From an uncultured bacterium (lineage in GTDB: Bacteria > Patescibacteriota > Microgenomatia > UBA1400 > MFAQ01), in NCBI GenBank assembly GCA_963980225.1, contig CAXBYW010000004.1:13007-77006 (forward strand): a stretch of DNA of 64,000 nucleotides. The letters run 5' to 3'. Positions 1 to 56,259 of the stretch are shown here, one piece after another. A program made the translations under genes and the position numbers. Below the pieces are notes generated by a model that had not been told where the DNA came from, made no database searches, and saw only the letters and a list, made by a program, of their open reading frames with translations. Each line of letters begins with the position of its first letter. Positions within the stretch are counted from its first letter, which is position 1.

Positions 1-135
1 AGACGAGATAGAGGAGGAAGGCTAGAGAGCCGACCACGACGATGGTTTTCCAGAGTTGGCCGATGTAGAAGGCTAAACCGTCCCCAGGAGATTTACTTAA
101 GATGTTGGCTGGTAGAGCGTTGTTTTGGATGGCCA

Positions 136-498
136 TTATAGATTTAATACTGCGGCTGGATCTAAGATATTTAGCCCCAAGACGTTACTAATGATGCCGA
201 TTATAAAGTAGGAGACAACGACAACGATGAGGCCGATAGCGGCTTGGGTCATCTGTGTCTTGGATTCTTCTGCTTTGGTTTTGTCACCACCAGAGGTGAT
301 CCATTTTAAGCCACCGATAATAAAAAAGATGGCGAAGGCTAAACTAGCCACTACCGTTATGGTAGTAATAATAGAGGAGAGAAATTCGGTAAGAAGAAAG
401 CCTGTTTGAGTGCCTGCTGCTTGTTGGTATTTACCTACTCCTGAGAGAGGTTTACCAAGATCGACTGTGGCTGCTTGTGCTGATTTTATTATGCTCAT
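136..498 (-). CDS. TrbC/VirB2-like type IV secretion system pilin-like small membrane protein (paralog 1 of 5)
   Basis: 120 aa with two hydrophobic helices flanking a conserved loop (GGLKWITSGGDKTKAEES). The same architecture and motif recur in four neighbouring ORFs. This is typical of CPR T4SS-pilin family proteins. Confidence 0.6.
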   Translation of the reverse strand: MSIIKSAQAATVDLGKPLSGVGKYQQAAGTQTGFLLTEFLSSIITTITVVASLAFAIFFIIGGLKWITSGGDKTKAEESKTQMTQAAIGLIVVVVSYFIIGIISNVLGLNILDPAAVLNL

Positions 499-501
499 AA
501 T

Positions 502-828
502 TTAATTAACGGTTTCAATTTTTGGACTTAGGATGAAGTTGGCATCATCAAAGAGAATCTTACCAGCAATAGCGGATAGTACGAAGCTTATGGCAATTAT
601 CACTAGACCGATTAAAGCATGATTTATTTTTGTTTGAGCTATTTCTACTTTGGCTTTGTCGCCACCGGCGGTAATGTAGTTAAAACCGGCTATGATCATT
701 TGCCAGAGAGAAAATATTCCGGCTAAGACTATTATGAAAGTAATGATGGCGCTTAAGAAATTTGTTGTATCGCCAACTGTGCTGGGGATACTGGCTGGGG
801 GAGTAATGGTGCCGACGATGTTGTTCAT
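502..828 (-). CDS. T4SS pilin-like small membrane protein (paralog 2)
   Basis: 108 aa. Motif AGFNYITAGGDKAKVE lies between two transmembrane helices. Paralogous to 136-498 and 830-1156. Confidence 0.6.
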   Translation of the reverse strand: MNNIVGTITPPASIPSTVGDTTNFLSAIITFIIVLAGIFSLWQMIIAGFNYITAGGDKAKVEIAQTKINHALIGLVIIAISFVLSAIAGKILFDDANFILSPKIETVN

Positions 829-829
829 A

Positions 830-1156
830 TTAGTTTGGATTAAATAAATCGATGTTTACTATTTGTCCTACTATTGTAGTAATAAGATAGGCGCTAACTA
901 CGACTGCTAAGCCTAATAATGCATAGTTTAACATACGGGCAGATTGTTCTGCTTTGGCCTTGTCACCGCTAGCGGTAATGTAGTTAAAGCCAGAGATGAT
1001 GATGGTAAAGAGGGCGATTAAAGCGCTAAAAATGAGGAGGTTTGAGATTAAAGGATTCAAGAGGGTGGAAAAGGTGGCGTTGGTGCCACCGAGTTTTTCA
1101 CCAGGAGCGTATATTTCTGACAGATCCTTGGCAAAGACGGGGTTTATTAGTGACAT
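830..1156 (-). CDS. T4SS pilin-like small membrane protein (paralog 3)
   Basis: 108 aa. Motif SGFNYITASGDKAKAE. Separated from the previous paralog by only 1 nt (tandem). Confidence 0.6.
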   Translation of the reverse strand: MSLINPVFAKDLSEIYAPGEKLGGTNATFSTLLNPLISNLLIFSALIALFTIIISGFNYITASGDKAKAEQSARMLNYALLGLAVVVSAYLITTIVGQIVNIDLFNPN

Positions 1157-1216
1157 GAAGGATATTATAGCAATAATATAAATCTCAATGAGGAAATGAT
1201 GAGGAGAGTGCTAGAT

Positions 1217-1909
1217 TTAGTTGCCACCAAAGCGACGGTTGCGGGTGGCGAAGCTTTTTAGGGCTGTTTTTAGTTTTTCAGGGGTGAAGTCTGGGAAGAG
1301 GGTGTTGGTGAAATAGAGTTCGGAGTAGACTGATTGCCAAGGTAGATATCCAGAGAGGCGTTTGTCTCCACCGGTTCTTATGATTAGGTCGGGGTCGGGA
1401 ATACCCGAAGTATCTAAATGAGAAGAAAAGAGTTTTTCGTTGATTTTGTCAACGGGGATGTTTTCTTTAACAATCTTTTTTACGGCCCTTAGTATTTCGT
1501 TTCTACCACCGTAGTTTAAGGCGAAGGTGACGGTTATTTGAGAGTTTTTCTTTGATTGTTGGATCATCTCTAGAGATTTTTGAGCAATGTCTTTGGGGAA
1601 ACGATCTATTTCACCTAAGATTCTTAGTCTGGCTCCTTGCTTGATGAATTTTTTAGCTAGGATGTTTAGAGCGAAACGAAAGACTTTGAATAGTTCGGCA
1701 ATCTCTTTTTTGTCTCTTTTCCAGTTTTCGGTGGAAAAAGCCCAAAAGGTAACAAACGGGATTTTTTGTTTAACACACTCTTCTATTAAGGGTTCGATAA
1801 CTTGTTCGGCTGCTTGTTGGTGACCTTTAACAACAGGTAGGTTCTTTTTTTTGGCCCAACGACGATTACCGTCCATGATTATGGCCACGTGATTTAAAGG
1901 TGTTTTCAT
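1217..1909 (-). CDS. uppS: Undecaprenyl pyrophosphate synthase (isoprenyl transferase)
   Basis: 230 aa with UppS hallmarks: N-terminal HVAIIMDGNRRWA, FSTENWKR and a C-terminal RTGG..RLSGYLPWQ region. Confidence 0.9.
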   Translation of the reverse strand: MKTPLNHVAIIMDGNRRWAKKKNLPVVKGHQQAAEQVIEPLIEECVKQKIPFVTFWAFSTENWKRDKKEIAELFKVFRFALNILAKKFIKQGARLRILGEIDRFPKDIAQKSLEMIQQSKKNSQITVTFALNYGGRNEILRAVKKIVKENIPVDKINEKLFSSHLDTSGIPDPDLIIRTGGDKRLSGYLPWQSVYSELYFTNTLFPDFTPEKLKTALKSFATRNRRFGGN

Positions 1910-1922
1910 GAAAGGTATTTTA

Positions 1923-2255
1923 TCAGATCAATGGGTCAGCCTGGAAGCCTATGATTGTAGAGACCACTCTGACTATGAGGAAACTGGCAATGACAACTAT
2001 AATACCAACAAGTCCGTTCATGAGTCTGTTGGAAGCAGCAGCGGTTTTTTTTGGATCTCCGGATGAGAACATGTAGCTCCAACCAGCAAGAAGGGTGTTT
2101 ACAAAAAAAGCCATACCAGCAACGAAGATTAAAAGATTGATGATGGAGAAACTGGTGCCTGCTCCACCCTTATTAGTAAAGATGTCTGCCAAGCTACTGT
2201 CTACAGGAATGTTTGTGGCTGGGTTTTGGTTTTTGATGGTGTCTATTATTGACAT
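1923..2255 (-). CDS. T4SS pilin-like small membrane protein (paralog 4)
   Basis: 110 aa. Two TM helices with loop motif AGWSYMFSSGDPKKTAAA. Confidence 0.55.
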   Translation of the reverse strand: MSIIDTIKNQNPATNIPVDSSLADIFTNKGGAGTSFSIINLLIFVAGMAFFVNTLLAGWSYMFSSGDPKKTAAASNRLMNGLVGIIVVIASFLIVRVVSTIIGFQADPLI

Positions 2256-2263
2256 ATGTTTTT

Positions 2264-2605
2264 TTAAAAACCTGGAATACTTAGTATTTTAACACCGATT
2301 AAGTTTAGGAGAACGATAGAGAGGATGATGAACAAAAGACCGGAGACGGCAGAGCCAATAATTTCTTTACCTTGGTTTAGTTTGTCTGGGTTGCCAGCGG
2401 AAGTAGTAACGATAAAAGTGCCGAAAAGAATAAGAAGTAAGGCAATACCACCACCTAAACCTATGGCTAGTTCTAAGAAACTACCAACAAAACCACCAGA
2501 TGCTACATCTGTGGAGATACAACCTAGGGCGGTGTCGATACCTTTGTCTCCACTAGGAGTGATACATTGAGGGGAAGCGGCGTAGACAGACTTTATTAAA
2601 CTCAT
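2264..2605 (-). CDS. T4SS pilin-like small membrane protein (paralog 5, divergent)
   Basis: 113 aa. N-terminal signal/TM, Cys pair, and TM helices flanking TSAGNPDKLNQGKE. More diverged member of the same array. Confidence 0.5.
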   Translation of the reverse strand: MSLIKSVYAASPQCITPSGDKGIDTALGCISTDVASGGFVGSFLELAIGLGGGIALLLILFGTFIVTTSAGNPDKLNQGKEIIGSAVSGLLFIILSIVLLNLIGVKILSIPGF

Positions 2606-2635
2606 GAAGGTTATTATACAAGCAATGGTTTAAAA

Positions 2636-4375
2636 TTGGTGGTAGATATTATGAAGAAGATATTGGGGGTGGCACTATTGGTGGGGATGATGCTGGGGAT
2701 GATGGGAGTGGTGAAGGCAGATGGTTGTGAAGGGAAGACGGGAGAGCCCTTATACACTTGTTTGGGGGAGGAGATATCAAGATTGAGTAGAGATTTGCAG
2801 TTAAGTAGAGATGCAACTAGTCCCTTGGAGACAGAAGCGTCTAGATTAGGAACACAAATTAGTTCCATTCAGTATCAGATTAATCAGGCAAAGGTAAAAC
2901 AAACAGAATTGGCTGCAGGGATTAGTGAAAGAGAGTACCTTTTAAGTGAGCAGTATTTAGTGTTGGCTGAGAAAACAAAGGCTTTTTACAAGAGAATTAG
3001 AAGTAGCTCTACTTTAGCGATGTTGATGACGTCTGTGGGGACCGGGTCGTTGAGTAGGGAGTTTAATTACAGGAATGAAGCAAATGAAAGAGACAGGCAG
3101 ATTATTGTTCGGTTGTCTAGTGAGATTGGGCAGTTAGAGAGTGATAAGCAGGATCTGGAAATTCAAAGAGAGAAGTTGTCTGGGCTTCAAGCAAGCTTAG
3201 ACAAGCAGAAGAGTTTTTATGATGGGGAGATAGGTAAGGCTAAGGCGTATCAAACAGACTTGTCGGGTAAGATTGCAGCTCTGTCTGCTAAACAACAAGA
3301 AGTGTTGGGAGAGAAGAGTGGGACCTTCCAGACAACTGTAGGTGATGTGCCTTTAGCGGATGACCCTAATTCCAGACCGGATTACAATCCTGGATTTTCA
3401 CCAGCGTTTGCGGCTTTTTCTTTTGGAGCACCACATTTTAAGGGTATGAGTCAGTATGGGGCGTTTGGTAGAGCAAAGGATGGTCAAAGTTATGAAGATA
3501 TTTTACGAGCATATTATGGAGGAGGAATAGAGATAAGGAGTGTGGACGTAAACACAAAGATAACTGTTGATGGTTATGGGAGCTATTCAATTGATGATTA
3601 TGCGAAACGAATTTATGAAGTGCCGGGTAGTTGGGGGGATGAGGGAGGAATGGCTGCTTTAGAGGCTCAGGCAATTGCGGCTAGAAGTTATGCTTTAGCT
3701 AGGGGTGGTTCGATTTGTGCGACTGAGGCTTGTCAGGTGTTTAAACCTAACCCTAAAGGAGGTAACTGGGAGACGGCGGTAAACAATACGAGTGGTAAGG
3801 TTGTGTACGCTAATGGTTCTCCTCTGTCTACTTGGTATGCTTCAACGAGTGGAGGATACCAAGAGTCCTATACCTCTAATGGTTACAGCACTCCTGGGTT
3901 TTGGGATACTAGTAATGGTAGAGATGGTTGGACAAGTGAAGCTTATGAAAAGAAAGCTGGAAGCCCTTGGTTTTATAAAGGGTGGTATAAGACAAGGTCT
4001 GGGGATAGTTGTGGCAGATCTCATCCTTGGTTAACAGGTGAGGAGATGGCAGATGTTTTAAATGCTTGGGTGGTGGTGGTAAAGAGAGGAGAGAGTGATG
4101 ATAGGGTTTTACCTTTAGGTGGTTGTTGGGGAGGTAATCCATATAGTGTGAGTGAGATGAAGGATAAGGCAAATAGTTCTGGGGAGGGCTATTCAAATGT
4201 TACGGGAGTAGTAAGAGTAGATTACTCTAATAGTGGGTATACACAAACTGTGGTTTTTGGAACAGACAGAGGTGAAGTAAGTATTAATGGTTTGGAGTTT
4301 AAGAAAGCATTTAATTTAAGAGCGCCAGGTAGGATTGCCTTGAAATCTGGGTTATTAAATATAGAGCAAAAGTAA
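2636..4375 (+). CDS. SpoIID/LytB-domain protein with N-terminal signal peptide and coiled-coil region
   Basis: 579 aa. Signal/TM at N-terminus, then a long coiled-coil. SpoIID-like motifs are present: GMSQYGAFG, QAIAARSYAL, ACQVF, STSGGY. Confidence 0.7.
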   Translation: MVVDIMKKILGVALLVGMMLGMMGVVKADGCEGKTGEPLYTCLGEEISRLSRDLQLSRDATSPLETEASRLGTQISSIQYQINQAKVKQTELAAGISEREYLLSEQYLVLAEKTKAFYKRIRSSSTLAMLMTSVGTGSLSREFNYRNEANERDRQIIVRLSSEIGQLESDKQDLEIQREKLSGLQASLDKQKSFYDGEIGKAKAYQTDLSGKIAALSAKQQEVLGEKSGTFQTTVGDVPLADDPNSRPDYNPGFSPAFAAFSFGAPHFKGMSQYGAFGRAKDGQSYEDILRAYYGGGIEIRSVDVNTKITVDGYGSYSIDDYAKRIYEVPGSWGDEGGMAALEAQAIAARSYALARGGSICATEACQVFKPNPKGGNWETAVNNTSGKVVYANGSPLSTWYASTSGGYQESYTSNGYSTPGFWDTSNGRDGWTSEAYEKKAGSPWFYKGWYKTRSGDSCGRSHPWLTGEEMADVLNAWVVVVKRGESDDRVLPLGGCWGGNPYSVSEMKDKANSSGEGYSNVTGVVRVDYSNSGYTQTVVFGTDRGEVSINGLEFKKAFNLRAPGRIALKSGLLNIEQK

Positions 4376-7198: not shown

Positions 7199-7636
7199 AT
7201 GAGGTTGGTAAACAGAAAAGCAAAAAGAGATTATGAGATTGTAGAAAGCTTGGAAGCTGGAGTAGTGTTGACTGGTAGTGAAGTGAAAAGTTTGAGGGTG
7301 GGACAAGGTAATTTGTTGGGTTCTAGAGTGATACTTAGAGATGGTGAGGTTTGGTTGAGTGGTTTTTCCATACCAAGGTATAGATTTGATGGTAGGGAGG
7401 ATGAATATGATCCTGATAGGATTAAAAAATTGTTGATAAAACAAGCAGAAAAACGACGTTTGGAGGTAAAATCCAAGAGTGGAGGTTTGACCATGATACC
7501 TCTGTCGGTGTATAATAAGCGAGGATTGATAAAAGTGGAGATAGGTTTGGTAAGAGGAAAGAAAAAATATGAAAAACGAGAGGTCCTTAAGAAAAGGAAA
7601 CAAAAAAGAGACCTGTCCAGAAGATTTAAAACTTAA
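7199..7636 (+). CDS. smpB: SsrA-binding protein SmpB
   Basis: 145 aa matching SmpB throughout (RKAKRDYEI..E.GVVLTGSEVKSLR..G.LLG). tmRNA gene lies immediately downstream. Confidence 0.9.
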   Translation: MRLVNRKAKRDYEIVESLEAGVVLTGSEVKSLRVGQGNLLGSRVILRDGEVWLSGFSIPRYRFDGREDEYDPDRIKKLLIKQAEKRRLEVKSKSGGLTMIPLSVYNKRGLIKVEIGLVRGKKKYEKREVLKKRKQKRDLSRRFKT

Positions 7637-7650
7637 ATAGATAGAAAGAA

Positions 7651-7899
7651 ATGAAAATGAATATATTTTGGGATAAAGCTATGCCTGTTGCAGTATCTGG
7701 TTACTCTTGGGGTGAAGAGATCTGTAAGTTAAAAACTCAGAAGGCATGGAAGGCAAGTCTTAAACCTAAATTAAAGAAAATGGATAAGGGTGAGTTTGAT
7801 CTTTTTTTGGCGGCAGTGGTAATGGAAGCGGCTAAGAAGCAGGTAATGGGAGTAGATTTGACCGAAAAAGTGGAAATGTTTAGAGAACTTAGAAAGTAA
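7651..7899 (+). CDS. small hypothetical protein between smpB and ssrA
   Basis: 82-aa ORF with no recognisable motif. May or may not be expressed. Confidence 0.3.
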   Translation: MKMNIFWDKAMPVAVSGYSWGEEICKLKTQKAWKASLKPKLKKMDKGEFDLFLAAVVMEAAKKQVMGVDLTEKVEMFRELRK

Positions 7900-7905
7900 T
7901 TTTAC

Positions 7906-7934
7906 TTGATTTTTCAGGCTATTTTTGATATATT
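7906..7934 (+). promoter_or_regulatory. sigma70-like promoter for tmRNA (TTGATT - 17 nt - TATATT)
   Basis: -35 TTGATT at 7906-7911, 17-nt spacer, -10 TATATT at 7929-7934, about 10 nt upstream of the tmRNA 5' GGGG. Confidence 0.5.
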
Positions 7935-7944
7935 CTCTAATATT

Positions 7945-8349
7945 GGGGACGAAAGGTTTCGATGGAATAAGTACATTGACAGTGGCAAGCCGAGTCTTAG
8001 GACAAACTCGTTAATACTGACCTAAAAAATAACTGTCAACGAAGAGAAGACAGACAGCGTTATCGCTACAGCTCCAGTTTTTGCTGGTGTTGAAACCGGT
8101 CTCGCTCCCGCTTACCTTTTTGCGTAATCGGGTGTTTCTAGATGGTCTTTCTTTTAGGGATCGCTAGAGGCAGGTACAAACTTTAAGATGCTTTATTTTT
8201 GTTTAATTTAGGCAAAGATAAAAAAGACTTCTAAATTAACTTAAAACTGATTTTGTTTGTGGGTAGGTTTTGAGGAAAATACACAAACTAAGCTTGTAGA
8301 CATTGTTATTTATTTATTGCAGACGTGGGTTCGAATCCCACCGTCTCCA
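7945..8349 (+). ncRNA. ssrA: tmRNA (SsrA)
   Basis: 5' GGGGACG pairs with 3' CGTCTCC-A (tRNA-like acceptor). The 3' end has a T-arm GGTTCGAATCCCACC. An internal ORF-like stretch ends in TAA. Lies directly downstream of smpB. Confidence 0.8.
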
Positions 8350-8378
8350 CAAAGGTAAATGGTAAAATATTTTATGTT

Positions 8379-8464
8379 GGAGGGTTGGCCGAGTGGTTAT
8401 GGCGCTGGTTTTGAAAACCAGTGAGCGCAAGCTCTCACAGGTTCGAATCCTGTACCCTCCGCCA
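8379..8464 (+). tRNA. tRNA-Ser(UGA)
   Basis: Cloverleaf GGAGGGT../..ACCCTCC-G-CCA. Anticodon loop TTTGAAA (anticodon TGA). Long variable arm. T-loop TTCGAAT. Confidence 0.85.
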
Positions 8465-8488
8465 GAGGCTGGTATAATTCGTTGTATT

Positions 8489-8576
8489 GGAGGCGTCGCA
8501 TAGTCTGGTCAATTGCACAAGATTGCTAATCTTGAACCTTCGGGTTACGTGGGTTCGAATCCCACCGCCTCCGCCA
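8489..8576 (+). tRNA. tRNA-Ser(GCU)
   Basis: Acceptor GGAGGCG/CGCCTCC-G-CCA. Anticodon stem CAAGA/TCTTG with loop TTGCTAA (GCT). Long variable arm. Confidence 0.85.
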
Positions 8577-8600
8577 TTTTGCTTGTGCTAAACTTTATCT

Positions 8601-9128
8601 GTGAGTAATAAAGATGCGGTAGCTAGAGAGCCAGTAGATGAAATGGATATTGGAGAAGAGAAGGTGCTTCATACCTGGAAGTCTGTAGAGAGACCGTTTA
8701 AGAAATGGAATAAGGAGTTTTATAGTACGGTGATGGTTTTTGCTGTTTTGGTGAGTATAATTTTCTTTTTCATAGAAGGATTTATGTTGGTATTAGTAGT
8801 CTGGGCGGTGGTGTTTATGGCTTGGGCGATATCTAGGACAGAGCCGGGTATTAGGGAACATAAGATTACAGATAAAGGAATTAGGACAGGAGGAACACTT
8901 TATAGATGGGATACGATGTTGGTTTACTGGTTAGAGGAGAAATGGGACAAGAAACTTTTGAGAGTACTTTTAAGCAAGTTTCCAGGCCAGTTAGTGTTGG
9001 TTTATGATCAGAAAGAAGAAAAAAAGATTAGAGAAATCATGAGTAAGTTTTTGGCTTTAGAGAAACCGGAGGCTACATGGACTGATAGAGTAGTGAAGTG
9101 GTTTGGTGAAAAGGTGCCTTTAGAGTAG
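8601..9128 (+). CDS. hypothetical membrane protein
   Basis: 175-aa ORF with two adjacent TM helices, embedded in the tRNA cluster. Confidence 0.45.
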   Translation: MSNKDAVAREPVDEMDIGEEKVLHTWKSVERPFKKWNKEFYSTVMVFAVLVSIIFFFIEGFMLVLVVWAVVFMAWAISRTEPGIREHKITDKGIRTGGTLYRWDTMLVYWLEEKWDKKLLRVLLSKFPGQLVLVYDQKEEKKIREIMSKFLALEKPEATWTDRVVKWFGEKVPLE

Positions 9129-9151
9129 TTTCAAGGTAAAATATTGGGCAT

Positions 9152-9224
9152 GCGCCCATAGCTTAATGGATAGAGCACTTGATTGCGGATCAAGAGGTTA
9201 CAAGTTCGAGTCTTGTTGGGCGCA
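9152..9224 (+). tRNA. tRNA-Arg(GCG)
   Basis: 73-nt cloverleaf GCGCCCA../..TGGGCGC-A. Anticodon stem CTTGA/TCAAG with loop TTGCGGA (anticodon GCG, G37). CCA not encoded. Confidence 0.7.
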
Positions 9225-9236
9225 CAATAAAGGCAA

Positions 9237-9321
9237 GGAGGGTTGGCCGAGTGGTCTATGGCGTTGGTTTCGAAAACCAATGGGTGTTAAGCCCGCACAG
9301 GTTCGAATCCTGTACCCTCCG
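9237..9321 (+). tRNA. tRNA-Ser(CGA)
   Basis: Acceptor GGAGGGT/ACCCTCC-G. Anticodon loop TTCGAAA (CGA). Long variable arm. Near-duplicate backbone of tRNA-Ser(UGA). Confidence 0.85.
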
Positions 9322-9344
9322 CAGTATTTACTTGCAATCTTGAT

Positions 9345-10397
9345 TTGACACAATCTTCGGGTTTTGTTAGACTAAATATAGGTATGAGATGGGTTTTTGC
9401 AGATGATGATCAAGTAAGTTTTTTTAAAGAAATTAAAGAGAAATCTGGTTTATCTAATGAAGTATTGGGTAGTTTTATTGGTGTGTCTGGTAGGAGTTTT
9501 GGTGACTGGGTTAATAGAAAGACGCTGCCTTCAAAAGAAGGTGTGTTAAGGTTGGGTCAAAAGTTTAAGATAATGGTTCCAAAGATATTGGAAGAAAGAG
9601 AGGAATTTTGGAGTGGAAGAATTCACGGAAGGAAAGCGGCTTTAAAGAGATTGAAGATTTATGGTCCTCCAGGTACACCCGAGGGTAGGAGGAAGGGTGG
9701 TTTGGTTTCCTGGCAAAGAAGACGAGAAAATCCTGATGTTTACAGGAAGCTAGGGTGTATTGTAGGAAATAAATTTATTAAACCAAAAAAGTCAGAAGAC
9801 CTAGCTGAGTTTGTTGGTATTGTTTTGGGGGATGGCTGTTTAACTAAAGATCAGTGTCAGATTTCTCTTAACATGATAGATGATAAAGAATATGTGAAGT
9901 ATGTTGCAAGATTGGTTTCAAAGCTTTTTGGATATGATCCAACAGTGGCTGAATATCCAGGGCAAACTGTTACGAGGATTATTATTACAGGTGTGTATTT
10001 TATAAAAATAATGAAAAGTTTTGGTTTGATAGTGGGAAATAAAACCAAGAATCAGGTTGGTGTCCCGGAATGGATAAAATCTGATAAAAACTTTTTTCGT
10101 GCCTGCATTAGGGGTTTGTTCGATACTGATGGAGGTACCTTTACTCACAAGCATAAAGTAAAGAGATACGATTATTGCCATTTTGGTTTAACTTATACAT
10201 CAGCTTGTAAACCACTGCTGTCTAGTTTTAAGAAATGTTTGGAGGTTGATGATATCAAGACTTATGGAAAAAAAGATTGTCTGTTTGTGTATAGAGTTGG
10301 TGATATTAATAGTTTTTTTAATATATATCAGACGAAGAATTTAAAACATGTTTATAGATTTAAAGACCATCTAAGTCGATCGACTAGGCTTAATTGA
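9345..10397 (+). CDS. double-motif LAGLIDADG homing endonuclease-like protein
   Basis: Two canonical LAGLIDADG motifs are present: FVGIVLGDGCLTK and IRGLFDTDGGTF, spaced about 100 aa apart. Free-standing between tRNA genes. The annotated start overlaps the tRNA 3' end, so the true start is probably the internal Met (MRWVF). Confidence 0.7.
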   Translation: MTQSSGFVRLNIGMRWVFADDDQVSFFKEIKEKSGLSNEVLGSFIGVSGRSFGDWVNRKTLPSKEGVLRLGQKFKIMVPKILEEREEFWSGRIHGRKAALKRLKIYGPPGTPEGRRKGGLVSWQRRRENPDVYRKLGCIVGNKFIKPKKSEDLAEFVGIVLGDGCLTKDQCQISLNMIDDKEYVKYVARLVSKLFGYDPTVAEYPGQTVTRIIITGVYFIKIMKSFGLIVGNKTKNQVGVPEWIKSDKNFFRACIRGLFDTDGGTFTHKHKVKRYDYCHFGLTYTSACKPLLSSFKKCLEVDDIKTYGKKDCLFVYRVGDINSFFNIYQTKNLKHVYRFKDHLSRSTRLN

Positions 10398-10415
10398 GGT
10401 ATAATTTGTTATGTT

Positions 10416-10499
10416 GGAGGGATGCAGGGAATGGTTAACCGGAACGCTTGGAAAGCGTTTGCCCTAACGGGCTTGGGGGTTCGAGTCCCCCTCCCTCCG
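10416..10499 (+). tRNA. tRNA-Ser(GGA)
   Basis: Acceptor GGAGGGA/TCCCTCC-G. Anticodon stem AACGC/GCGTT with loop TTGGAAA (GGA). Long variable arm. T-loop TTCGAGT. Confidence 0.8.
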
Positions 10500-10540
10500 C
10501 AGAGTAAGTGTTTTTTAGTATTTAGGATAGAATAGGGATT

Positions 10541-12310
10541 ATGGATCAGGTTGAAGAAATTAAGAGAAAAGTAAATATTGTTTCGTTGATTGGTGAGTAT
10601 GTTACTTTAAAGAATACGGGTAGAAACCATAAAGGACTGTGTCCGTTTCATGGAGAGAAAAGCCCGTCGTTTATGGTAAATGAGGAGTTACAGATTTATA
10701 AATGTTTTGGGTGTGGAGTTGGAGGTGATGTAATCAAGTTTTTGATGGAGATTGAGGGTTTAGATTTTATAGAAGCGTTGGAAAAACTGGCTAAAAGAGC
10801 TGGGGTTAAGTTAGAGAAAAAGGGGAGAGATAATCAGAGTAGTGAAAAGAAACGAGTATTGGAGATGCATTCTTTGGCTGGTGAGTACTATCATTACTTG
10901 CTTATGGAGCATAAGGTTGGAGAGGTGGCAAGAAAGTATTTGTTGGGTAGGGGTTTGAACAAGAAAATTTGGGAGAGTTTTCGTTTAGGTTTTTCTTTAT
11001 CTACATGGGATGGGTTGAGTAAGTTTTTGATTGAAAAAAAGGGTTTTAAGGAGAATGAACTAATCAGTGCAGGACTTTCGATAAAGGGAAGTAAGGGAGG
11101 AGTGTATGACAGGTTTAGAGGTAGGATAATGTTTCCTTTACTTGATAGTGGTGAGAAGGTGGTTGGTTTTTCAGGTAGGGTAATTCCTGAACTTGCTAGG
11201 GAAAATGAACCTAAATATATAAACTCACCGGAGACGCTTGTGTACCATAAGTCACAGATGCTTTTTGGTTTGACTCAAGCAAGGCAAGCGATAAGAAAAA
11301 AGGATCAGGTGGTGGTAGTGGAAGGAGAGTTGGACATGATTAGTTCCTTTATGGCAGGAGTGACTGAGACGGTGGCTATTAAAGGGTCTGCTTTAACAGA
11401 GGAAATGGTAGAGAAACTAGCTAGGTTGTGTAACTTGGTTATCTTGGCTTTGGATGCTGATGATGCAGGCGAGGAAGCGTTGAAGAAGTCTATTGAGACA
11501 CTGGAAAAAAGAGGTTTGGAGGTAAAAGTGGTGTATTGGTCTGACGGTAAGGATCCAGATGAACTAGCTAGAAAAAACCCTTTGTCGTGGAGAAAACTGG
11601 TTGACAAGCCGGTGTCGGTATATGAATGGATAATGAAAAAGGCTTTTGATAAATGGGGGGTGGAGACGCCGGAAGACATAAAAAAAATAGTAAAAATGAC
11701 TGTGCCTTACTTGTCCAAGATAGAAAATAGGGTGGTGGCGGAAGTTTGGGTGAAGAGGTTGGCGGAAAAACTAGGTGTAGGTAAAGAAAGAGTTTGGGAA
11801 GAGGTTGAAAAAAGTGGAAAAAGAAGTGAGTTAAGAACTGAGTCAAGTACTAAGGAGGTAGAGAAAATAGAGGAGACGGACAACAAGACACATAAACTTA
11901 CAGAAAGACTTTTAACTGTTCTGTTTCAACTTGAGGGAGAAGAAAAAGGGTTGGTGAAAAAGATACTTTCAGGGATTAGTTTGGATGGTGCTGCCGGTAA
12001 ACTCTTAATAAGGTGGGTTAAGACTAAAGATGGAAAGATTGCTAGTTGGATCAAGAAGTTGCCGGATGAATTAAGAGTGGTGGCAGAAAGGTGTTTTATT
12101 AATGAAAAAGAAGAAGGTTTAGGGGAAAGAGAGGTTGTTAGGTTAGCTGTGGACTTGGCTAGAAATAAATTACAGGAAGAAAGAGTAGTTTTGATCGGTA
12201 AGTTGGAAATGGTGGAAAAGACTGATGATGAGGGTAAAATAGAGGAAATTAGTAGGAGATTGGTGTGGCTAGACAAGAAAGAAAGATTAATAGTTGGGTT
12301 TTTGATCTAG
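10541..12310 (+). CDS. dnaG: DNA primase
   Basis: N-terminal CHC2 zinc finger ([18 protein letters not shown]). Toprim region present ([24 protein letters not shown]). Confidence 0.9.
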
Positions 12311-43944: not shown

Positions 43945-44207
43945 AAAAGGAAGAAAGTGGTAGACAGTTAAAGCTTAGTGAGCAAGACAATGAAGAGAAG
44001 GTAGTTGATAAGAAGGATAAAAAGAAAAGAAATAAACCTAAAGATAGATGGACCATATTTGTGGTTTTGTTTATAACAATACTAGTCAGTTTGGTATTTT
44101 ATTTTGTCTCCGGGATACCTAAAACACAAAAAAATGATGAAATGGAAAAAATAGAAAACATAAAAAAAAATAATGATTTCTTTGGCTCAGCTGTACATGA
44201 GCTCTAG
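43941..44207 (+). CDS. small hypothetical membrane protein (lysine-rich N-terminus, one TM)
   Basis: 88-aa ORF. One TM helix (WTIFVVLFITILVSLVFYFV). Confidence 0.35.
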   Translation: MKKEESGRQLKLSEQDNEEKVVDKKDKKKRNKPKDRWTIFVVLFITILVSLVFYFVSGIPKTQKNDEMEKIENIKKNNDFFGSAVHEL

Positions 44208-53551: not shown

Positions 53552-53941
53552 ATGAGGCAGTGGTGGAAGACGTGTTATAGTTTATCTATGGCTACAATTA
53601 AGGAAGTTGAACCAAGATCAATATCGGTGGATGAAGAGGCACTAAAAGAAGTAGAAGGATATGTGGAAAGAGTAGAGAAGCAAATGGAGATTAAGAAGCC
53701 GTCTAATCCATTACAACCTTCTTCAGTAAAAACTCCTGCACCTAAAGTTCAAGATGATTTTGGTAATGTGGTAATGCAGGCAGCTCAGAAACAAGTTAAG
53801 GCAAAAATTATATTACCAATGGATGAAATAGAGGTAAAAGAAGGTTTGCATCATAAGATAATAGATGCTGCTAGATGGTTGGCAGAATGGTGTGTGTTAA
53901 TGATTAAAAAATATCCAGGTAGAGTGTTTTATAAACGATGA
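53552..53941 (+). CDS. hypothetical protein
   Basis: 129-aa ORF (likely starts at the internal MATIKEV) immediately upstream of, and overlapping, the T4SS-like ATPase gene. Confidence 0.35.
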   Translation: MRQWWKTCYSLSMATIKEVEPRSISVDEEALKEVEGYVERVEKQMEIKKPSNPLQPSSVKTPAPKVQDDFGNVVMQAAQKQVKAKIILPMDEIEVKEGLHHKIIDAARWLAEWCVLMIKKYPGRVFYKR

Positions 53942-56259
53942 TTGATCTAGCTAACATGGTGCAGTATGTTTTTGGAGTGGTTTTGGGGTTGTCATTGTTT
54001 TTGACGGTATTTATTGGCTTAGGGATAATATTGTTGCAGTGGCTTAGGTTCAAGAACAGAGAAGAGGTTAGTCTTAATTTTGTTTTACTAGAGTTGGCTG
54101 TACCAAGAGATAATGAGATTAAGATAGATGCGGCAGAACAGATGTTTGCGGCTCTTTCTTCTATTAAGAAGGGTGGCTTTTGGCAAAAATTTAAAGCTCA
54201 ACAGCATTTGTCTTTTGAGATAGTGGGCAAGAAAGAAGATATAAGATTCTATGTTTCATGTCATAGGGATAACATGGAACTTATTGATAAGCAGTTGGCT
54301 GGCGCTTATCCTGGTATTCAAGTGAAGGAAGTAGATGAGTACAATATTTTTGATGAACAAGGTAAGGTCGCTTTTACGGAGTTGGTTTTAAAAAATGAGT
54401 CTTTTAAGCCAATAAAGAGTTATAGAGAACTACCAGTTGACTCCTTATCTCAAATTACTTCTTCTTTAGCTAAGTTTGGAGATGATGAGGGGGCAGTGAT
54501 ACAGATGATTATTAGTCCAGCTGATCCTGCTTGGAGCAAGTCAGGAAGTGGTTTCTTGTCTAAAACAAAAAAAGATGAGGCTGATCCTGAGAAGGCAAGC
54601 TTCAAGATGAGTCCACAAGACATGGAAGCTATTGATCAAAAAGTTGGTAAGCCAGGTTTTTTGGCTAGTGTGAGGATTGTGTGTGTGGCGCCAAGTGAAG
54701 GTCAAGCAAAAAGTAACTTAAGTAACTTAAAAGGTGTTTTTGCTCAGTATTCAAGTGATTTGAATAATTTTTCTAGCAAGAAAATTAGATTTAAAAAAGG
54801 TTTCATGGTGGATTTTGTTTATAGATACCAATCGTTATTTGGTAATAATTCTGTTTTATCTAGTGATGAGTTGGCAACGATGTGGCATATGCCAAACAAT
54901 ACGATACAGACACCACATATTCACTGGTTAAATGCTAAGAGTGCACCAGCATCTGGTGGTTTCCCGTCCACTGGTCTCTGGTTGGGTAGATCAATTTACC
55001 GAGGTCAGACAAGAAATATATTTATGAGTGAGGCGGATAGGATGAGGCACATGTACATTATTGGACGAACCGGTACAGGAAAAACAGAGCTTTTAAAGCA
55101 GATGATTATTCAGGACATGAGGGCTGGTAATGGTTTGTGTTTTCTAGAACCACATGGTGATGGAATAGAAGAACTTTTGGAGATGGTGCCACCAGAACGA
55201 GCAGAGGATGTAATTGTGTTTGACCCAGCTGATGAAGAGAGACCAATCGGATTTAATCCGATGTCGGTTAAGAATATCGATGAGATTTATCAAGTGGCGA
55301 GTTCGATAATTAATCTGATGTACAAGCTTTATGATCCTAATAAGACGGGGATGGTTGGTCCTAGGTTTGAACATTCAGTCAGAAACATAATGTTAACGGT
55401 GGCGGTAGAAAAGGGTGCTGGTTTTGTAGAAATTGTGAGAGCTTTAACAGATAGTAAGTATGTTCAAGAGCTTCTACCAAAAGTAAAAGATCCGGTGGTA
55501 AAAAGGTACTGGACGGATCAAATCGCTCAGACAAGTGATTTTCATAAGAGTGAGGTCTTAGACTACATTACTTCTAAGTTTGGTAGGTTTGTTACAAATA
55601 GAATGATAAGAAATATTATTGGCCAAAGTGAGACGACATTGGACTTTAGAAAGGCCATGGACGAGGGGAAGATTGTGTTTTTGAAATTAGCTAAGGGTTT
55701 GATCGGTGAAGAAGACTCTAACTTTTTAGGATTAGTTTTGGCGCCGAAAATTTTACAAGCAGCTTTGTCTAGGCAAGACACGCCTAGGGAGCAAAGGAGA
55801 CCGTTTTACTTTTATGTTGATGAGTTTCAAAACTTTGCTACACCAGACTTCGCTCAAATGCTATCTGAAGCCAGAAAATATAACTTGGGGCTTATACTAG
55901 CTAATCAGTTTGTTAGTCAGGTGGATGAGCAAGTGCGAGATGCTATTTTTGGTAACGTGGGTACCTTGATGAGCTATCGGGTTGGAGTACAAGATGCAAG
56001 TATTCTAGCTAAGTCTTTTGCCCCAACGTTTAACGAAGGGGATTTGTCGAACATTGGAGCTCAAAATCTTTATGTAAAAACCATTGTTGATGGTACACCG
56101 GTGCCACCTTTTAGTATGAATGTGTGGAGAGACCTAGAAAAAGAGAGAGGACATGGTAGTGCAAAGGTGGCAACATTAGTTAAAGAACTGTCTTCTTTAA
56201 AGTATGGTAGGGATAGGGCAGAAGTTGAGGAGGAGATTTTGAGAAGATCTAAGCTGTAA
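53938..56259 (+). CDS. VirB4/VirD4-like type IV secretion system ATPase (FtsK/HerA-TraG superfamily P-loop NTPase)
   Basis: 773 aa. N-terminal TM hairpin, Walker A IIGRTGTGKTE near residue 375, Walker B FYFYVDEFQNF (DEF as in TraG/VirD4-type coupling proteins). The roughly 300-aa N-terminal domain is VirB4-like. Confidence 0.6.
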   Translation: MIDLANMVQYVFGVVLGLSLFLTVFIGLGIILLQWLRFKNREEVSLNFVLLELAVPRDNEIKIDAAEQMFAALSSIKKGGFWQKFKAQQHLSFEIVGKKEDIRFYVSCHRDNMELIDKQLAGAYPGIQVKEVDEYNIFDEQGKVAFTELVLKNESFKPIKSYRELPVDSLSQITSSLAKFGDDEGAVIQMIISPADPAWSKSGSGFLSKTKKDEADPEKASFKMSPQDMEAIDQKVGKPGFLASVRIVCVAPSEGQAKSNLSNLKGVFAQYSSDLNNFSSKKIRFKKGFMVDFVYRYQSLFGNNSVLSSDELATMWHMPNNTIQTPHIHWLNAKSAPASGGFPSTGLWLGRSIYRGQTRNIFMSEADRMRHMYIIGRTGTGKTELLKQMIIQDMRAGNGLCFLEPHGDGIEELLEMVPPERAEDVIVFDPADEERPIGFNPMSVKNIDEIYQVASSIINLMYKLYDPNKTGMVGPRFEHSVRNIMLTVAVEKGAGFVEIVRALTDSKYVQELLPKVKDPVVKRYWTDQIAQTSDFHKSEVLDYITSKFGRFVTNRMIRNIIGQSETTLDFRKAMDEGKIVFLKLAKGLIGEEDSNFLGLVLAPKILQAALSRQDTPREQRRPFYFYVDEFQNFATPDFAQMLSEARKYNLGLILANQFVSQVDEQVRDAIFGNVGTLMSYRVGVQDASILAKSFAPTFNEGDLSNIGAQNLYVKTIVDGTPVPPFSMNVWRDLEKERGHGSAKVATLVKELSSLKYGRDRAEVEEEILRRSKL

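What the first reader, a model, noticed from the sequence alone, without database searches (positions are those of the whole stretch)
136..2605. Tandem array of five paralogous T4SS-pilin-like (TrbC/VirB2-type) genes interrupted by uppS
Five consecutive minus-strand ORFs of 108-120 aa share the same architecture: two TM helices around a conserved (S/A)G(F/W)xY(I/M)(T/F)(A/S)GGD(K/P)(A/T)K loop. They are separated by gaps of only 1-9 nt. A housekeeping gene (uppS) sits in the middle. The array may provide antigenic or functional variation of a surface filament, possibly for host attachment or DNA uptake in an episymbiont. The adjacent SpoIID/LytB-like protein (2636-4375) could remodel cell wall for filament passage.
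Basis: partly seen in the sequence, partly recalled or inferred. Interest (0 to 1): 0.6.

Follow-up and report, generated by a model that had tools for sequence, protein, structure and literature searches.

The report
Pilin-like gene array of a Patescibacteria T4SS
The five small genes are real and belong to a nine-gene array of secretion-system "pilin-like" membrane proteins in an ultra-small Microgenomatia bacterium, a type of array already described in these bacteria, so this is a new example rather than a new kind of thing.

Summary
Five minus-strand ORFs (136-498, 502-828, 830-1156, 1923-2255, 2264-2605) are paralogous two-helix membrane proteins, with uppS (1217-1909) between them. All five match Pfam PF18895 T4SS_pilin, three above the curated cutoff.

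The window edge cuts the array. A sixth gene starts at base 136, and the 100%-identical 303-kb contig shows nine pilin-like genes. These are followed by PrgI/VirB3-like, TrsD-like and VirB4-like genes 8 kb further on. A coupling-protein-like gene lies at 53938-56259.

Such VirB2-like pilin arrays (2-11 genes, sometimes split by a non-pilin gene) are already published for Patescibacteria, and one is essential in Southlakia epibionticum.

Antigenic variation is not supported. Each paralog has a positional ortholog in a sister genome (70-93% identity, dN/dS 0.04-0.16). Similarity to canonical VirB2/TrbC is weak. There is a significant but sub-cutoff match to the Mycoplasma ICE pilin-like family.

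Points I found no mention of in the papers checked:
- a uppS / pilin pair / SpoIID-like neighbourhood conserved across Microgenomatia;
- loss of the Sec signal peptide in 8 of 9 paralogs, some keeping a conserved 9-11-residue mini-leader;
- leaderless-type promoters.

Verdict: a new member of a known kind, of modest interest.

The parts
1..136 (-). 5' part of a sixth pilin-like gene (P6, 104 aa in full), cut by the window edge. Its ATG at 136-134 overlaps the stop codon of P5.
   Evidence: The window's left 8 kb is 100% identical to L001. In L001 the ORF 10363-10677 encodes 104 aa and scores 26.2 bits against PF18895.
136..498 (-). P5, 120-aa pilin-like two-helix protein with the mini-leader MSIIKSAQA|A
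   Evidence: PF18895 35.1 bits. NF045849 E=2e-7. AF2 hairpin model.
502..828 (-). P4, 108-aa pilin-like protein
   Evidence: PF18895 17.9 bits, E=0.0034, below the cutoff. E=9e-33 against the family HMM built from A2, which includes the window's own paralogs.
830..1156 (-). P3, 108-aa pilin-like protein with the mini-leader MSLINPVFA|K
   Evidence: PF18895 27.8 bits. NF045849 E=1.5e-5.
1164..1169 (-). TATAAT box 7 nt upstream of the P3 ATG (leaderless-type promoter candidate)
   Evidence: The motif is enriched at gene starts: 12 of 68 against 1.2% of all ATGs, p=3e-11.
1217..1909 (-). uppS, undecaprenyl diphosphate synthase, nested in the array
   Evidence: PF01255 E=1e-74, full length.
1917..1922 (-). 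TAAAAT box 7 nt upstream of the uppS ATG, directly after the P2 stop codon (candidate own promoter)
1923..2255 (-). P2, 110-aa pilin-like protein
   Evidence: PF18895 27.6 bits.
2264..2605 (-). P1, 113-aa pilin-like protein, first gene of the array. It has a conserved Cys pair (C14, C29) in the N-terminal tail. Orthologs elsewhere carry signal peptides and larger N-terminal ectodomains.
   Evidence: PF18895 22.4 bits, below the cutoff. Orthologs Q1 (175 aa) and R1 (392-aa ORF).
2613..2618 (-). TATAAT box 7 nt upstream of the P1 ATG (leaderless-type promoter candidate)
2651..4375 (+). SpoIID/LytB-domain protein with an N-terminal anchor and coiled coil, transcribed divergently from P1. Candidate cell-wall remodelling partner.
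   Evidence: TIGR02669 88.3 bits against a cutoff of 83.3. PF08486 E=1e-9. Adjacency to the pilin pair is conserved in L007, L009, L010, L011, L012 and L018.
53938..56259 (+). T4SS coupling-protein-like (VirD4/TrwB-type) ATPase, 51 kb from the array
   Evidence: PF10412 TrwB_AAD_bind 31.4 bits and PF12696 TraG-D_C 28.2 bits, both above their cutoffs.

Best explanation
The five ORFs are part of a nine-gene chromosomal array of T4SS pilin-like subunits (Pfam T4SS_pilin family). The host is a Microgenomatia (Collierbacteria-like, order UBA1400-type) Patescibacterium.

Shown: each protein is a two-helix membrane hairpin.

Inferred from charge distribution and conserved Cys pairs: the N- and C-terminal tails face outward and the short basic GGDKxK-type loop faces the cytoplasm.

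Inferred from gene neighbourhood and published work on related systems: the subunits are handled by the adjacent monoderm-type T4SS. That system comprises a polytopic 537-aa membrane protein (possibly VirB6-like, itself a guess), PrgI/VirB3-like, TrsD-like and VirB4 ATPase genes, plus a distant coupling protein. The subunits would build a pilus or conduit through the cell wall toward the host cell of this presumed epibiont.

The nine paralogs are old, positionally conserved and under purifying selection. They most likely have non-redundant roles, for example one major and several minor or accessory subunits, or a mixed polymer, rather than serving as interchangeable antigenic variants. P8 has the only full signal peptide and 93% ortholog identity, so it is the best candidate for a major subunit.

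uppS and the divergent SpoIID/LytB-like gene are long-standing neighbours of the first two pilin genes. The SpoIID-like enzyme may open the peptidoglycan for the apparatus; this is inference only.
For: - PF18895 hits all five in-window proteins, three at or above the cutoff. It also hits the four further paralogs, three at or above the cutoff and one just below.
- 79 of 80 family members match PF18895.
- NF045849 'pilin-like conjugal transfer protein' of Mycoplasma ICEs matches P5, P3, P8 and P9 over the full model at E=2e-7 to 2e-5.
- The AF2 model is a hairpin with pLDDT about 90 in the hairpin.
- The array is contiguous with a PrgI-like gene (27.0 bits, equal to the cutoff), a TrsD/VirB4_plasma-like gene and a VirB4-like gene carrying AAA_10 and P-loop_TraG. 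A T4CP-like gene lies in the window.
- Ortholog matrix and dN/dS.
- Loop and tail charges, and conserved Cys pairs in the N-tails of P1 and P9 orthologs. DsbA- and DsbD-like genes are present in the window.
[quoted passage not shown] The pilin series is essential in S. epibionticum (PMC10633639; PMC12857230).
Against: - No filament has been seen for any member of this family.
- Sequence similarity to canonical VirB2/TrbC is weak. PF04956 reaches only 18.1 bits for P9 and matches 5 of 80 relatives, about as many as unrelated hydrophobic families. hhalign against a VirB2 profile gives E=0.021 and probability 2%.
- Foldseek against the PDB gives no significant hit; an archaeal conjugation pilin (8dfu) ranks 14th among generic helical hairpins.
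- Eight of nine paralogs lack the long cleavable signal peptide typical of VirB2, TraA and TrbC.
- Two in-window paralogs are below the Pfam cutoff.
- The VirB6-like assignment of the 537-aa protein has no family match.
Confidence: 0.6

Rival explanations
1. The proteins are T4SS components homologous to pilins, but they do not build an extracellular pilus. They stay in or near the membrane as part of the translocation channel or its assembly platform. This would resemble the single pilin-like protein of wall-less Mycoplasma ICEs, and the pilin requirement for substrate transfer in Gram-negative T4SSs that make no pili.
For: The best curated sequence match outside PF18895 is the Mycoplasma ICE pilin-like family NF045849. 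The T4SS review notes that pilin-like subunits are needed even where no pili are made (PMC12857230). No filament has been reported for this family. The signal peptide is absent in 8 of 9 paralogs.
Against: Nine conserved paralogs are hard to explain for a channel plug alone. Extracytoplasmic tails with conserved disulfide-type Cys pairs, and large ectodomains on P1 orthologs, suggest surface exposure.
Confidence: 0.22
2. This is the first reader's version: the array supplies antigenic or host-range variants of one surface filament, with paralogs being interchangeable and turning over quickly.
For: Within-array divergence is high, 22-64% identity. Analogies with Bartonella and Anaplasma VirB2 paralogs are drawn in PMC12102498. 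The N-terminal ectodomain of P1 orthologs differs greatly between species.
Against: Copy number and order are identical in six assemblies of this organism and in a sister species. Blackburnbacteria keeps 8 genes in largely matching order. Every paralog has a 1:1 ortholog with dN/dS 0.04-0.16, similar to uppS and SmpB. No repeats or recombination signs were found, although none were searched for in depth. The fast-evolving gene of the locus is the 645-aa secreted protein at 40% identity, not the pilins.
Confidence: 0.06
3. The proteins are small two-TM membrane proteins whose real partners are UppS and the SpoIID-like enzyme, acting in cell-envelope or lipid-carrier biology. The 'pilin' name would then be a mis-annotation carried over from gene neighbourhood.
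For: uppS lies within about 180 nt of a family member in all eight Patescibacteria loci recovered, and SpoIID-like is adjacent in six. Sequence and fold links to canonical VirB2 are not significant.
Against: The same conserved block also holds unrelated housekeeping genes (SmpB and others). Inherited synteny therefore explains the linkage without any functional tie. The bulk of the array abuts T4SS genes, and in 1135 assemblies pilin genes lie near virB4 (PMC12102498). The NF045849 match ties the family to conjugation systems. uppS has its own promoter-like box.
Confidence: 0.07

Closest known systems
VirB2-like pilin arrays of Patescibacteria T4SS loci (Pfam PF18895 T4SS_pilin), e.g. the essential pilin series SEML1_0006-0019 region of Ca. 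Southlakia epibionticum ML1; 441 arrays surveyed in PMC12102498
   Same: Same Pfam family. Tandem array within the published 2-11 gene range, split by one non-pilin gene. Low within-array identity (22-64% here; published mean 25%, maximum 54%). Located a few genes from virB4 in a monoderm-type T4SS locus. The class, Microgenomatia, is one in which arrays are reported to be most abundant.
   Different: Nine genes is near the upper end of the range. The intervening gene is identified here as uppS and is a conserved neighbour. Eight of nine paralogs have no Sec signal peptide. A coupling-protein-like gene is present elsewhere in the window, whereas none was recognised in S. epibionticum. Neither uppS nor SpoIID occurs in the main text of the survey paper PMC12102498.
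Mycoplasma ICE 'Mbov_0395 / MMCAP2_0565 family pilin-like conjugal transfer protein' (NCBIfam NF045849)
   Same: About 80-residue two-helix core aligned end to end (model positions 7-11 to 76-78 of 80) at E=2e-7 to 2e-5. Encoded next to a VirB4 of the monoderm type. The 228-aa gene upstream of VirB4 here also matches the Mycoplasma VirB4_plasma and TrsD models.
   Different: Scores of 24-30 bits are below the equivalog cutoff of 40. The Mycoplasma elements are mobile ICEs in wall-less cells, whereas this is a nine-gene array in a chromosomal locus of a walled cell. That the ICEs carry only one such gene is from my own knowledge and was not checked here.
Canonical conjugative pilins VirB2/TrbC (PF04956), e.g. 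A. tumefaciens VirB2 (PDB 8cue, 8exh)
   Same: Small size; two hydrophobic helices joined by a short loop carrying basic residues; inferred N-out/C-out topology; association with VirB3/VirB4-type genes. hhalign places helix 1 on helix 1 and helix 2 on helix 2.
   Different: No significant sequence or fold match. Most paralogs lack the long leader. There is no evidence for cyclisation, and no TraF-type peptidase was seen. The organism has no outer membrane.
Multi-copy VirB2 paralogs of Bartonella / Anaplasma T4SS
   Same: Several divergent pilin genes in tandem within a T4SS locus.
   Different: Those paralogs are thought to serve immune evasion or host-range variation. Here the paralogs are ancient, 1:1 conserved between species and under purifying selection.

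Membership tests
Pfam PF18895 T4SS_pilin | Whole-protein score at or above the gathering cutoff (26.6 bits) | tested here: met
   In the window: 35.1, 27.8 and 27.6 bits are above the cutoff; 22.4 and 17.9 bits are below it (E=1e-4 and 3e-3). The four paralogs beyond the window edge score 26.2, 30.2, 35.9 and 44.5 bits. So 6 of 9 meet the cutoff. The other three join through the family HMM built from A2 (E=2.6e-25 for P1, 8.7e-33 for P4, 5.7e-22 for P6); P1 and P4 are themselves in that alignment, so only the P6 score is independent.
Pfam PF18895 T4SS_pilin | Two-helix hairpin core of about 70 residues | tested here: met
   AF2 model: helices 28-68 and 73-107, pLDDT about 90 in the hairpin. 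Each of the nine has two hydrophobic segments.
Patescibacterial VirB2-like pilin array (as defined in PMC12102498) | At least 2 pilin genes in tandem or separated by one non-pilin gene | tested here: met
   Nine genes, with a single intervening gene, uppS.
Patescibacterial VirB2-like pilin array (as defined in PMC12102498) | Located near virB4 (within 20 coding sequences) together with other T4SS parts | tested here: met
   The VirB4-like gene (AAA_10, P-loop_TraG) is the 7th gene after P9, 8.3 kb away. PrgI-like and TrsD-like genes lie in between.
TrbC/VirB2 pilin (Pfam PF04956) | HMM score at or above the gathering cutoff (27.9 bits) | tested here: not met
   No in-window paralog hits at E<=1. 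P9 scores 18.1 bits (E=0.003). Only 5 of 80 relatives hit at E<=0.01.
TrbC/VirB2 pilin (Pfam PF04956) | Profile-profile homology to bona fide VirB2 | tested here: inconclusive
   hhalign of A2 against a 30-sequence VirB2 profile aligns in the correct register over 66 columns, but with E=0.021 and probability 2%. Against single VirB2, E=0.056. The VirB2 profile was narrow (55-95% identity).
TrbC/VirB2 pilin (Pfam PF04956) | Long N-terminal signal peptide removed by signal peptidase I | tested here: not met
   By eye, only P8 has an n-h-c signal peptide ending AQA|K; the hydropathy scan did not flag it as a separate segment. The other eight have no N-terminal hydrophobic segment (hydropathy scan and inspection). 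No dedicated predictor was available.
TrbC/VirB2 pilin (Pfam PF04956) | Fold match to solved conjugative pilins | tested here: inconclusive
TrbC/VirB2 pilin (Pfam PF04956) | Polymerises with lipid into a helical filament | not testable with these tools
   Needs cryo-EM or cryo-ET.
NCBIfam NF045849 Mbov_0395-family pilin-like conjugal transfer protein (Mycoplasma ICE) | Score at or above the equivalog cutoff (40 bits) | tested here: not met
   Scores of 30.4, 26.1, 24.5 and 24.1 bits with E=2e-7 to 2e-5 and full-length alignment. This indicates significant homology, not membership of the equivalog.
UppS (PF01255 Prenyltransf) | Full-length match above the cutoff | tested here: met
   251.3 bits, model positions 1-219 of 219.
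SpoIID/LytB domain (TIGR02669) | Score at or above the cutoff (83.3 bits) | tested here: met
   88.3 bits. Catalytic residues were not examined.

The most novel reading that the evidence does not exclude
In Microgenomatia the first two pilin-like genes form an ancient module with uppS and a divergently transcribed SpoIID/LytB-like gene. This module could reflect a functional coupling. The SpoIID-like enzyme would be the missing VirB1-type wall-opening factor of these T4SSs, and/or UppS-derived polyprenyl lipid would take part in pilin modification or in the pilus itself. The conserved 9-11-residue N-terminal mini-leader ending in (V/I)-x-A|A would be a new Sec-independent targeting or processing signal for these pilins.
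Probability: 0.12. Interest if true: 0.55.

Novelty: new member of a known kind. Interest (0 to 1): 0.3.

Why it matters
T4SS pilin arrays are among the few envelope machines shown to be essential for the epibiotic life of Patescibacteria, and what they do is unknown. This locus adds four things:
- a well-resolved Microgenomatia example with nine paralogs;
- evidence that the paralogs are ancient and individually conserved, which argues for division of labour rather than antigenic variation;
- a candidate wall-remodelling partner (SpoIID/LytB-like) in a class where VirB1 and VirB6 homologues are reported as scarce;
- leaderless, signal-peptide-less pilin forms that raise the question of how they are inserted and processed.

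None of this changes the known picture. It gives concrete hypotheses for groups that can now manipulate these organisms.

Tried and rejected
- Sequence search of the family profile against all PDB chains: no pilin hit, only a de novo design and an unrelated membrane protein.
- Foldseek of the AF2 model against the PDB and BFVD: nothing significant. The BFVD search was of little value.
- hhalign against single VirB2 and against a VirB2 profile: not significant.
- The search for related loci with the 80-sequence pilin alignment failed because no stretch was conserved enough, so uppS was used as the probe instead.
- Consensus sigma-70 and terminator scan of 1-3000: counts no higher than in shuffles, so not used as evidence.
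- An origin of replication at the divergent P1/SpoIID junction was considered and rejected: GC skew does not change sign across the locus.
- Hidden upstream signal peptides or a read-through polyprotein were considered and rejected. The ORFs are already maximal, gaps are 1-8 nt, and P5's stop is TAA; the other stop codons were not all inspected.
- Strain variation in copy number was rejected. Apparent differences between contigs are gene-calling differences on identical DNA.
- A Pfam survey of the rest of the window found only housekeeping genes: no relaxase, no signal peptidase I, no further T4SS parts apart from the T4CP-like gene.
Full report
**1. The observation**

The five minus-strand ORFs are present exactly as described: 136-498 (120 aa), 502-828 (108), 830-1156 (108), 1923-2255 (110) and 2264-2605 (113). 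Between them lies a 230-aa ORF (1217-1909) that is a full-length undecaprenyl diphosphate synthase (PF01255, E=1e-74).

Pilin-to-pilin gaps are 3, 1 and 8 nt. The gaps around uppS are 60 and 13 nt.

The five proteins align over their whole length at 21-34% identity to the first. A Gly, a Lys and a Gly are invariant in and just after the inter-helix loop. An HMM made from them recovers only these five among 267 window ORFs of 40 aa or more, and the next best E-value is 0.24. The similarity is therefore real paralogy and not a generic hydrophobic pattern.

**2. The array is larger than the finding says**

The left 8 kb of the window is 100% identical to a 303-kb metagenome contig (locus L001). 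A sixth paralog starts at window base 136, its ATG overlapping the TAA stop of the 120-aa gene, and runs off the window.

In L001 the order is P1, P2, uppS, then P3 to P9, which makes nine pilin-like genes. They are followed by:
- a 645-aa secreted Cys-rich protein;
- a 537-aa polytopic membrane protein;
- a 716-aa protein on the other strand;
- a 230-aa protein;
- a PrgI/VirB3-like protein (PF12666, 27.0 bits, equal to its cutoff);
- a 228-aa protein matching the TrsD and Mycoplasma VirB4_plasma models;
- a VirB4-like ATPase (AAA_10, P-loop_TraG).

The window also encodes a coupling-protein-like ATPase at 53938-56259. The rest of the window is housekeeping chromosome: DnaG, RpoD, the SUF system, pentose-phosphate enzymes, two class A PBPs, a ribonucleotide reductase, FtsH and others. 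No relaxase and no signal peptidase I were found.

**3. Family assignment**

All five in-window proteins hit Pfam PF18895 'T4SS_pilin'. Three are above the 26.6-bit cutoff (35.1, 27.8, 27.6) and two are below (22.4, 17.9). The four paralogs outside the window score 26.2, 30.2, 35.9 and 44.5 bits.

A database search with the five-sequence profile returned 453 relatives. Where named, they come from Patescibacteria, Collierbacteria or Microgenomates. Of the 80 aligned members, 79 hit PF18895.

The AlphaFold2 model of P5 is a helix-loop-helix hairpin with pLDDT about 90 in the hairpin.

The link to canonical VirB2/TrbC is weak:
- PF04956 reaches only 18.1 bits for P9 and matches 5 of 80 relatives, no more than some unrelated hydrophobic families.
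- hhalign against A. tumefaciens VirB2 gives E=0.056, and against a 30-sequence VirB2 profile E=0.021 with probability 2%. The helices do align in the right register. I had checked the recalled VirB2 sequence against PDB 8cue and used the deposited sequence for the comparison.
- Foldseek against the PDB finds only generic hairpins, with an archaeal conjugation pilin (8dfu) at rank 14.

A more informative link is NCBIfam NF045849, the 'pilin-like conjugal transfer protein' of Mycoplasma ICEs. It aligns end to end with P5, P3, P8 and P9 at E=2e-7 to 2e-5, though below the strict equivalog cutoff. This fits the published conclusion that the Patescibacteria T4SS is related to the monoderm MPF-FATA class, which includes Tenericutes (PMC12102498).

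**4. What is already known**

PMC12102498 searched 3,035 Patescibacteria genomes with PF18895, PF04956 and other profiles. [quoted passage not shown] These are most abundant in Microgenomatia and Saccharimonadia, with mean within-array identity of 25%.

In Ca. Southlakia epibionticum the series of predicted pilins inside the T4SS cluster is essential for epibiotic growth (PMC10633639). A recent T4SS review highlights these as the only monoderm T4SSs with potential pili (PMC12857230).

The present locus is therefore a further example of a described kind.

**5. What the paralogs tell us**

All nine genes are found in the same order in six independent assemblies of this organism. Apparent differences in gene number are gene-calling differences on identical DNA.

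A sister genome (L007, uppS 84% identical) also has nine, each a positional ortholog at 70-93% identity. Paralogs within a genome share only 22-64%. Blackburnbacteria (L009) has 2 + uppS + 6, with positional orthologs at 36-51%.

Nei-Gojobori dN/dS between L001 and L007 is 0.04-0.16 for the pilins, against 0.065 for uppS and 0.16 for SmpB. dS is near saturation, so these values are rough. The fast-evolving genes of the locus are the 645-aa secreted protein (40% identity), the 537-aa membrane protein (56%) and the SpoIID-like protein (60%).

This pattern argues against an antigenic-variation cassette and for nine individually maintained functions. P8 is the most conserved (93%) and the only one with a full signal peptide, so it is my candidate for the major subunit. 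This is inference.

**6. Topology and N-termini**

The loops carry net charge 0 to +2. Six of the nine N-tails are net negative, and C-tails range from -2 to +1. P1 and P9, and their orthologs, have a conserved Cys pair in the N-tail. The window encodes DsbA- and DsbD-like proteins. Together these point to N-out/C-out topology with a cytoplasmic loop, as in VirB2 and TraA. This is inferred from the positive-inside rule.

Eight of nine paralogs have no Sec-type signal peptide. P1, P3 and P5, and dozens of their orthologs, begin with a conserved 9-11-residue motif, M-x-(L/I)-(I/V)-K-x-(V/I)-(Y/H/F)-A|A. It resembles the n- and c-regions of a signal peptide with the hydrophobic core deleted. Some orthologs start exactly after it, and Blackburnbacteria orthologs carry full signal peptides. 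How these forms are inserted, and whether the mini-leader is cleaved, is unexplained.

**7. uppS and SpoIID**

Using UppS as a probe in one genome per species, I recovered eight loci that are from Patescibacteria by title or by content. These cover Collierbacteria-like, Blackburnbacteria, Woesebacteria, Gottesmanbacteria, Pacebacteria, a 'Parcubacteria group' MAG and two unplaced or mis-binned contigs. In all eight a pilin-like gene lies within about 180 nt of uppS. None of the other 72 loci has one.

In six of the eight loci a SpoIID/LytB-like gene flanks the same pilin pair. bPH-domain, 618-aa and SmpB genes follow it in four of them (the SmpB match is missing in Blackburnbacteria). uppS is co-directional inside the array in Collierbacteria-like and Blackburnbacteria genomes, but convergent with the pilin pair elsewhere.

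The same block keeps unrelated housekeeping genes, so inherited synteny is the simplest explanation. uppS also has its own TAAAAT-N7-ATG element directly after the P2 stop codon.

The SpoIID-like protein passes the TIGR02669 cutoff. [quoted passage not shown] Neither uppS nor SpoIID appears in the main text of that paper.

**8. Expression signals**

TANAAT boxes 6-7 nt upstream of the ATG occur at P1, uppS, P3 and P9. They occur at 12 of the 68 window gene starts examined (P9 lies outside the window and is not among them), against 1.2% of all ATGs (binomial p=3e-11). Shine-Dalgarno motifs are rare.

This suggests leaderless transcripts and at least four transcription units: P1-P2, uppS, P3 to P7 or P8, and P9 onward. 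It is a sequence-based inference without transcript data.

**9. Verdict**

The family assignment and the SpoIID idea are supported to the extent possible in silico. The antigenic-variation idea is not supported, and homology to canonical VirB2 remains unproven by sequence or fold.

The finding is a new member of a known kind. The conserved uppS/SpoIID neighbourhood, the signal-peptide-less pilins with a mini-leader and the strict 1:1 conservation of nine paralogs are modest additions worth noting.

Noticed in passing
window 1-64000: Extreme strand asymmetry: G 17360 against C 7737, GC skew 0.38 over the whole window and up to 0.57 in 2-kb windows. There is no sign change across the T4SS locus, so the pilin/T4SS genes lie on the C-rich strand. 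This matches the whole-chromosome G/C disparity published for order UBA1400 (Collierbacteria, Beckwithbacteria, Ch65; PMC7143001) and supports the taxonomic placement.
   Followed up: partly
window gene starts, e.g. 2613-2618, 1917-1922, 1164-1169 (minus strand); upstream of 4393, 7199, 10541, 15315, 22641, 36840 (plus strand); 26561, 41954, 48512 (minus strand): A TANAAT box sits 6-7 nt upstream of the ATG at 12 of 68 gene starts, against 1.2% of all ATGs (p=3e-11). Shine-Dalgarno motifs are rare. This suggests widespread leaderless mRNAs in this genome. A full-text search for leaderless + Patescibacteria + Shine-Dalgarno found no paper.
   Followed up: partly
window 2576-2605, 1127-1156, 469-498 (N-termini of P1, P3, P5); many orthologs among P0001-P0120: Conserved 9-11-residue N-terminal mini-leader, M-x-(L/I)-(I/V)-K-x-(V/I)-(Y/H/F)-A|A. 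It resembles a signal peptide lacking its hydrophobic core. Some orthologs start exactly after it, and others carry a full signal peptide.
   Followed up: partly
L007 7099-7626; L009 6920-8098; L010 344-3214; L012 11862-13136; L018 11425-12627: In relatives, several ORFs carrying the pilin domain are much longer. The P1 orthologs have a signal peptide plus a Cys-rich or larger N-terminal region ahead of the C-terminal pilin hairpin (175 aa in L007; a 392-aa ORF in L009). Other ORFs in L010, L012 and L018 reach about 400-950 aa, but some lengths may be inflated by my choice of start codon. In this genome P1 is trimmed to 113 aa.
   Followed up: partly
L001 11778-13715 and 13735-15348 (just outside the window): Directly after the array lie a 645-aa secreted Cys-rich protein and a 537-aa polytopic membrane protein. 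Neither has any Pfam or NCBIfam match. They are the fastest-evolving genes of the locus (40% and 56% identity to L007). The second may be the divergent VirB6 reported as 'scarce' in Microgenomatia.
   Followed up: partly
L001 10363-10677; L002 (P1, P3, P6): Public gene calls differ between contigs with identical DNA: the 104-aa P6 is not called in L001 and L002, and P1 and P3 are not called in L002. Counts of pilin genes taken from annotations alone would understate array sizes.
   Followed up: yes
window 7199-10500: SmpB (7199-7636) is followed by tmRNA (7945-8350), then four tRNA-Ser genes and one tRNA-Arg. A LAGLIDADG-domain ORF (9345-10397) sits between two of the tRNA-Ser genes.
   Followed up: no
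window 44204-48512 (minus strand): Two tandem, slightly overlapping class A penicillin-binding proteins (transglycosylase + transpeptidase; 656 and 781 aa) in a reduced genome.
   Followed up: no
window 53552-56259: The T4SS coupling-protein-like gene (773 aa) lies 51 kb from the pilin array, directly after the NrdR and ribonucleotide reductase genes. It is preceded by a 129-aa ORF with no family match. No relaxase was found in the window.
   Followed up: partly
L008 (CAZBRK010000071.1): A 2.2-kb contig labelled 'uncultured Pseudomonadales' carries two pilin-like genes and a uppS 70% identical to this one. It is probably a mis-binned Patescibacteria contig.
   Followed up: no
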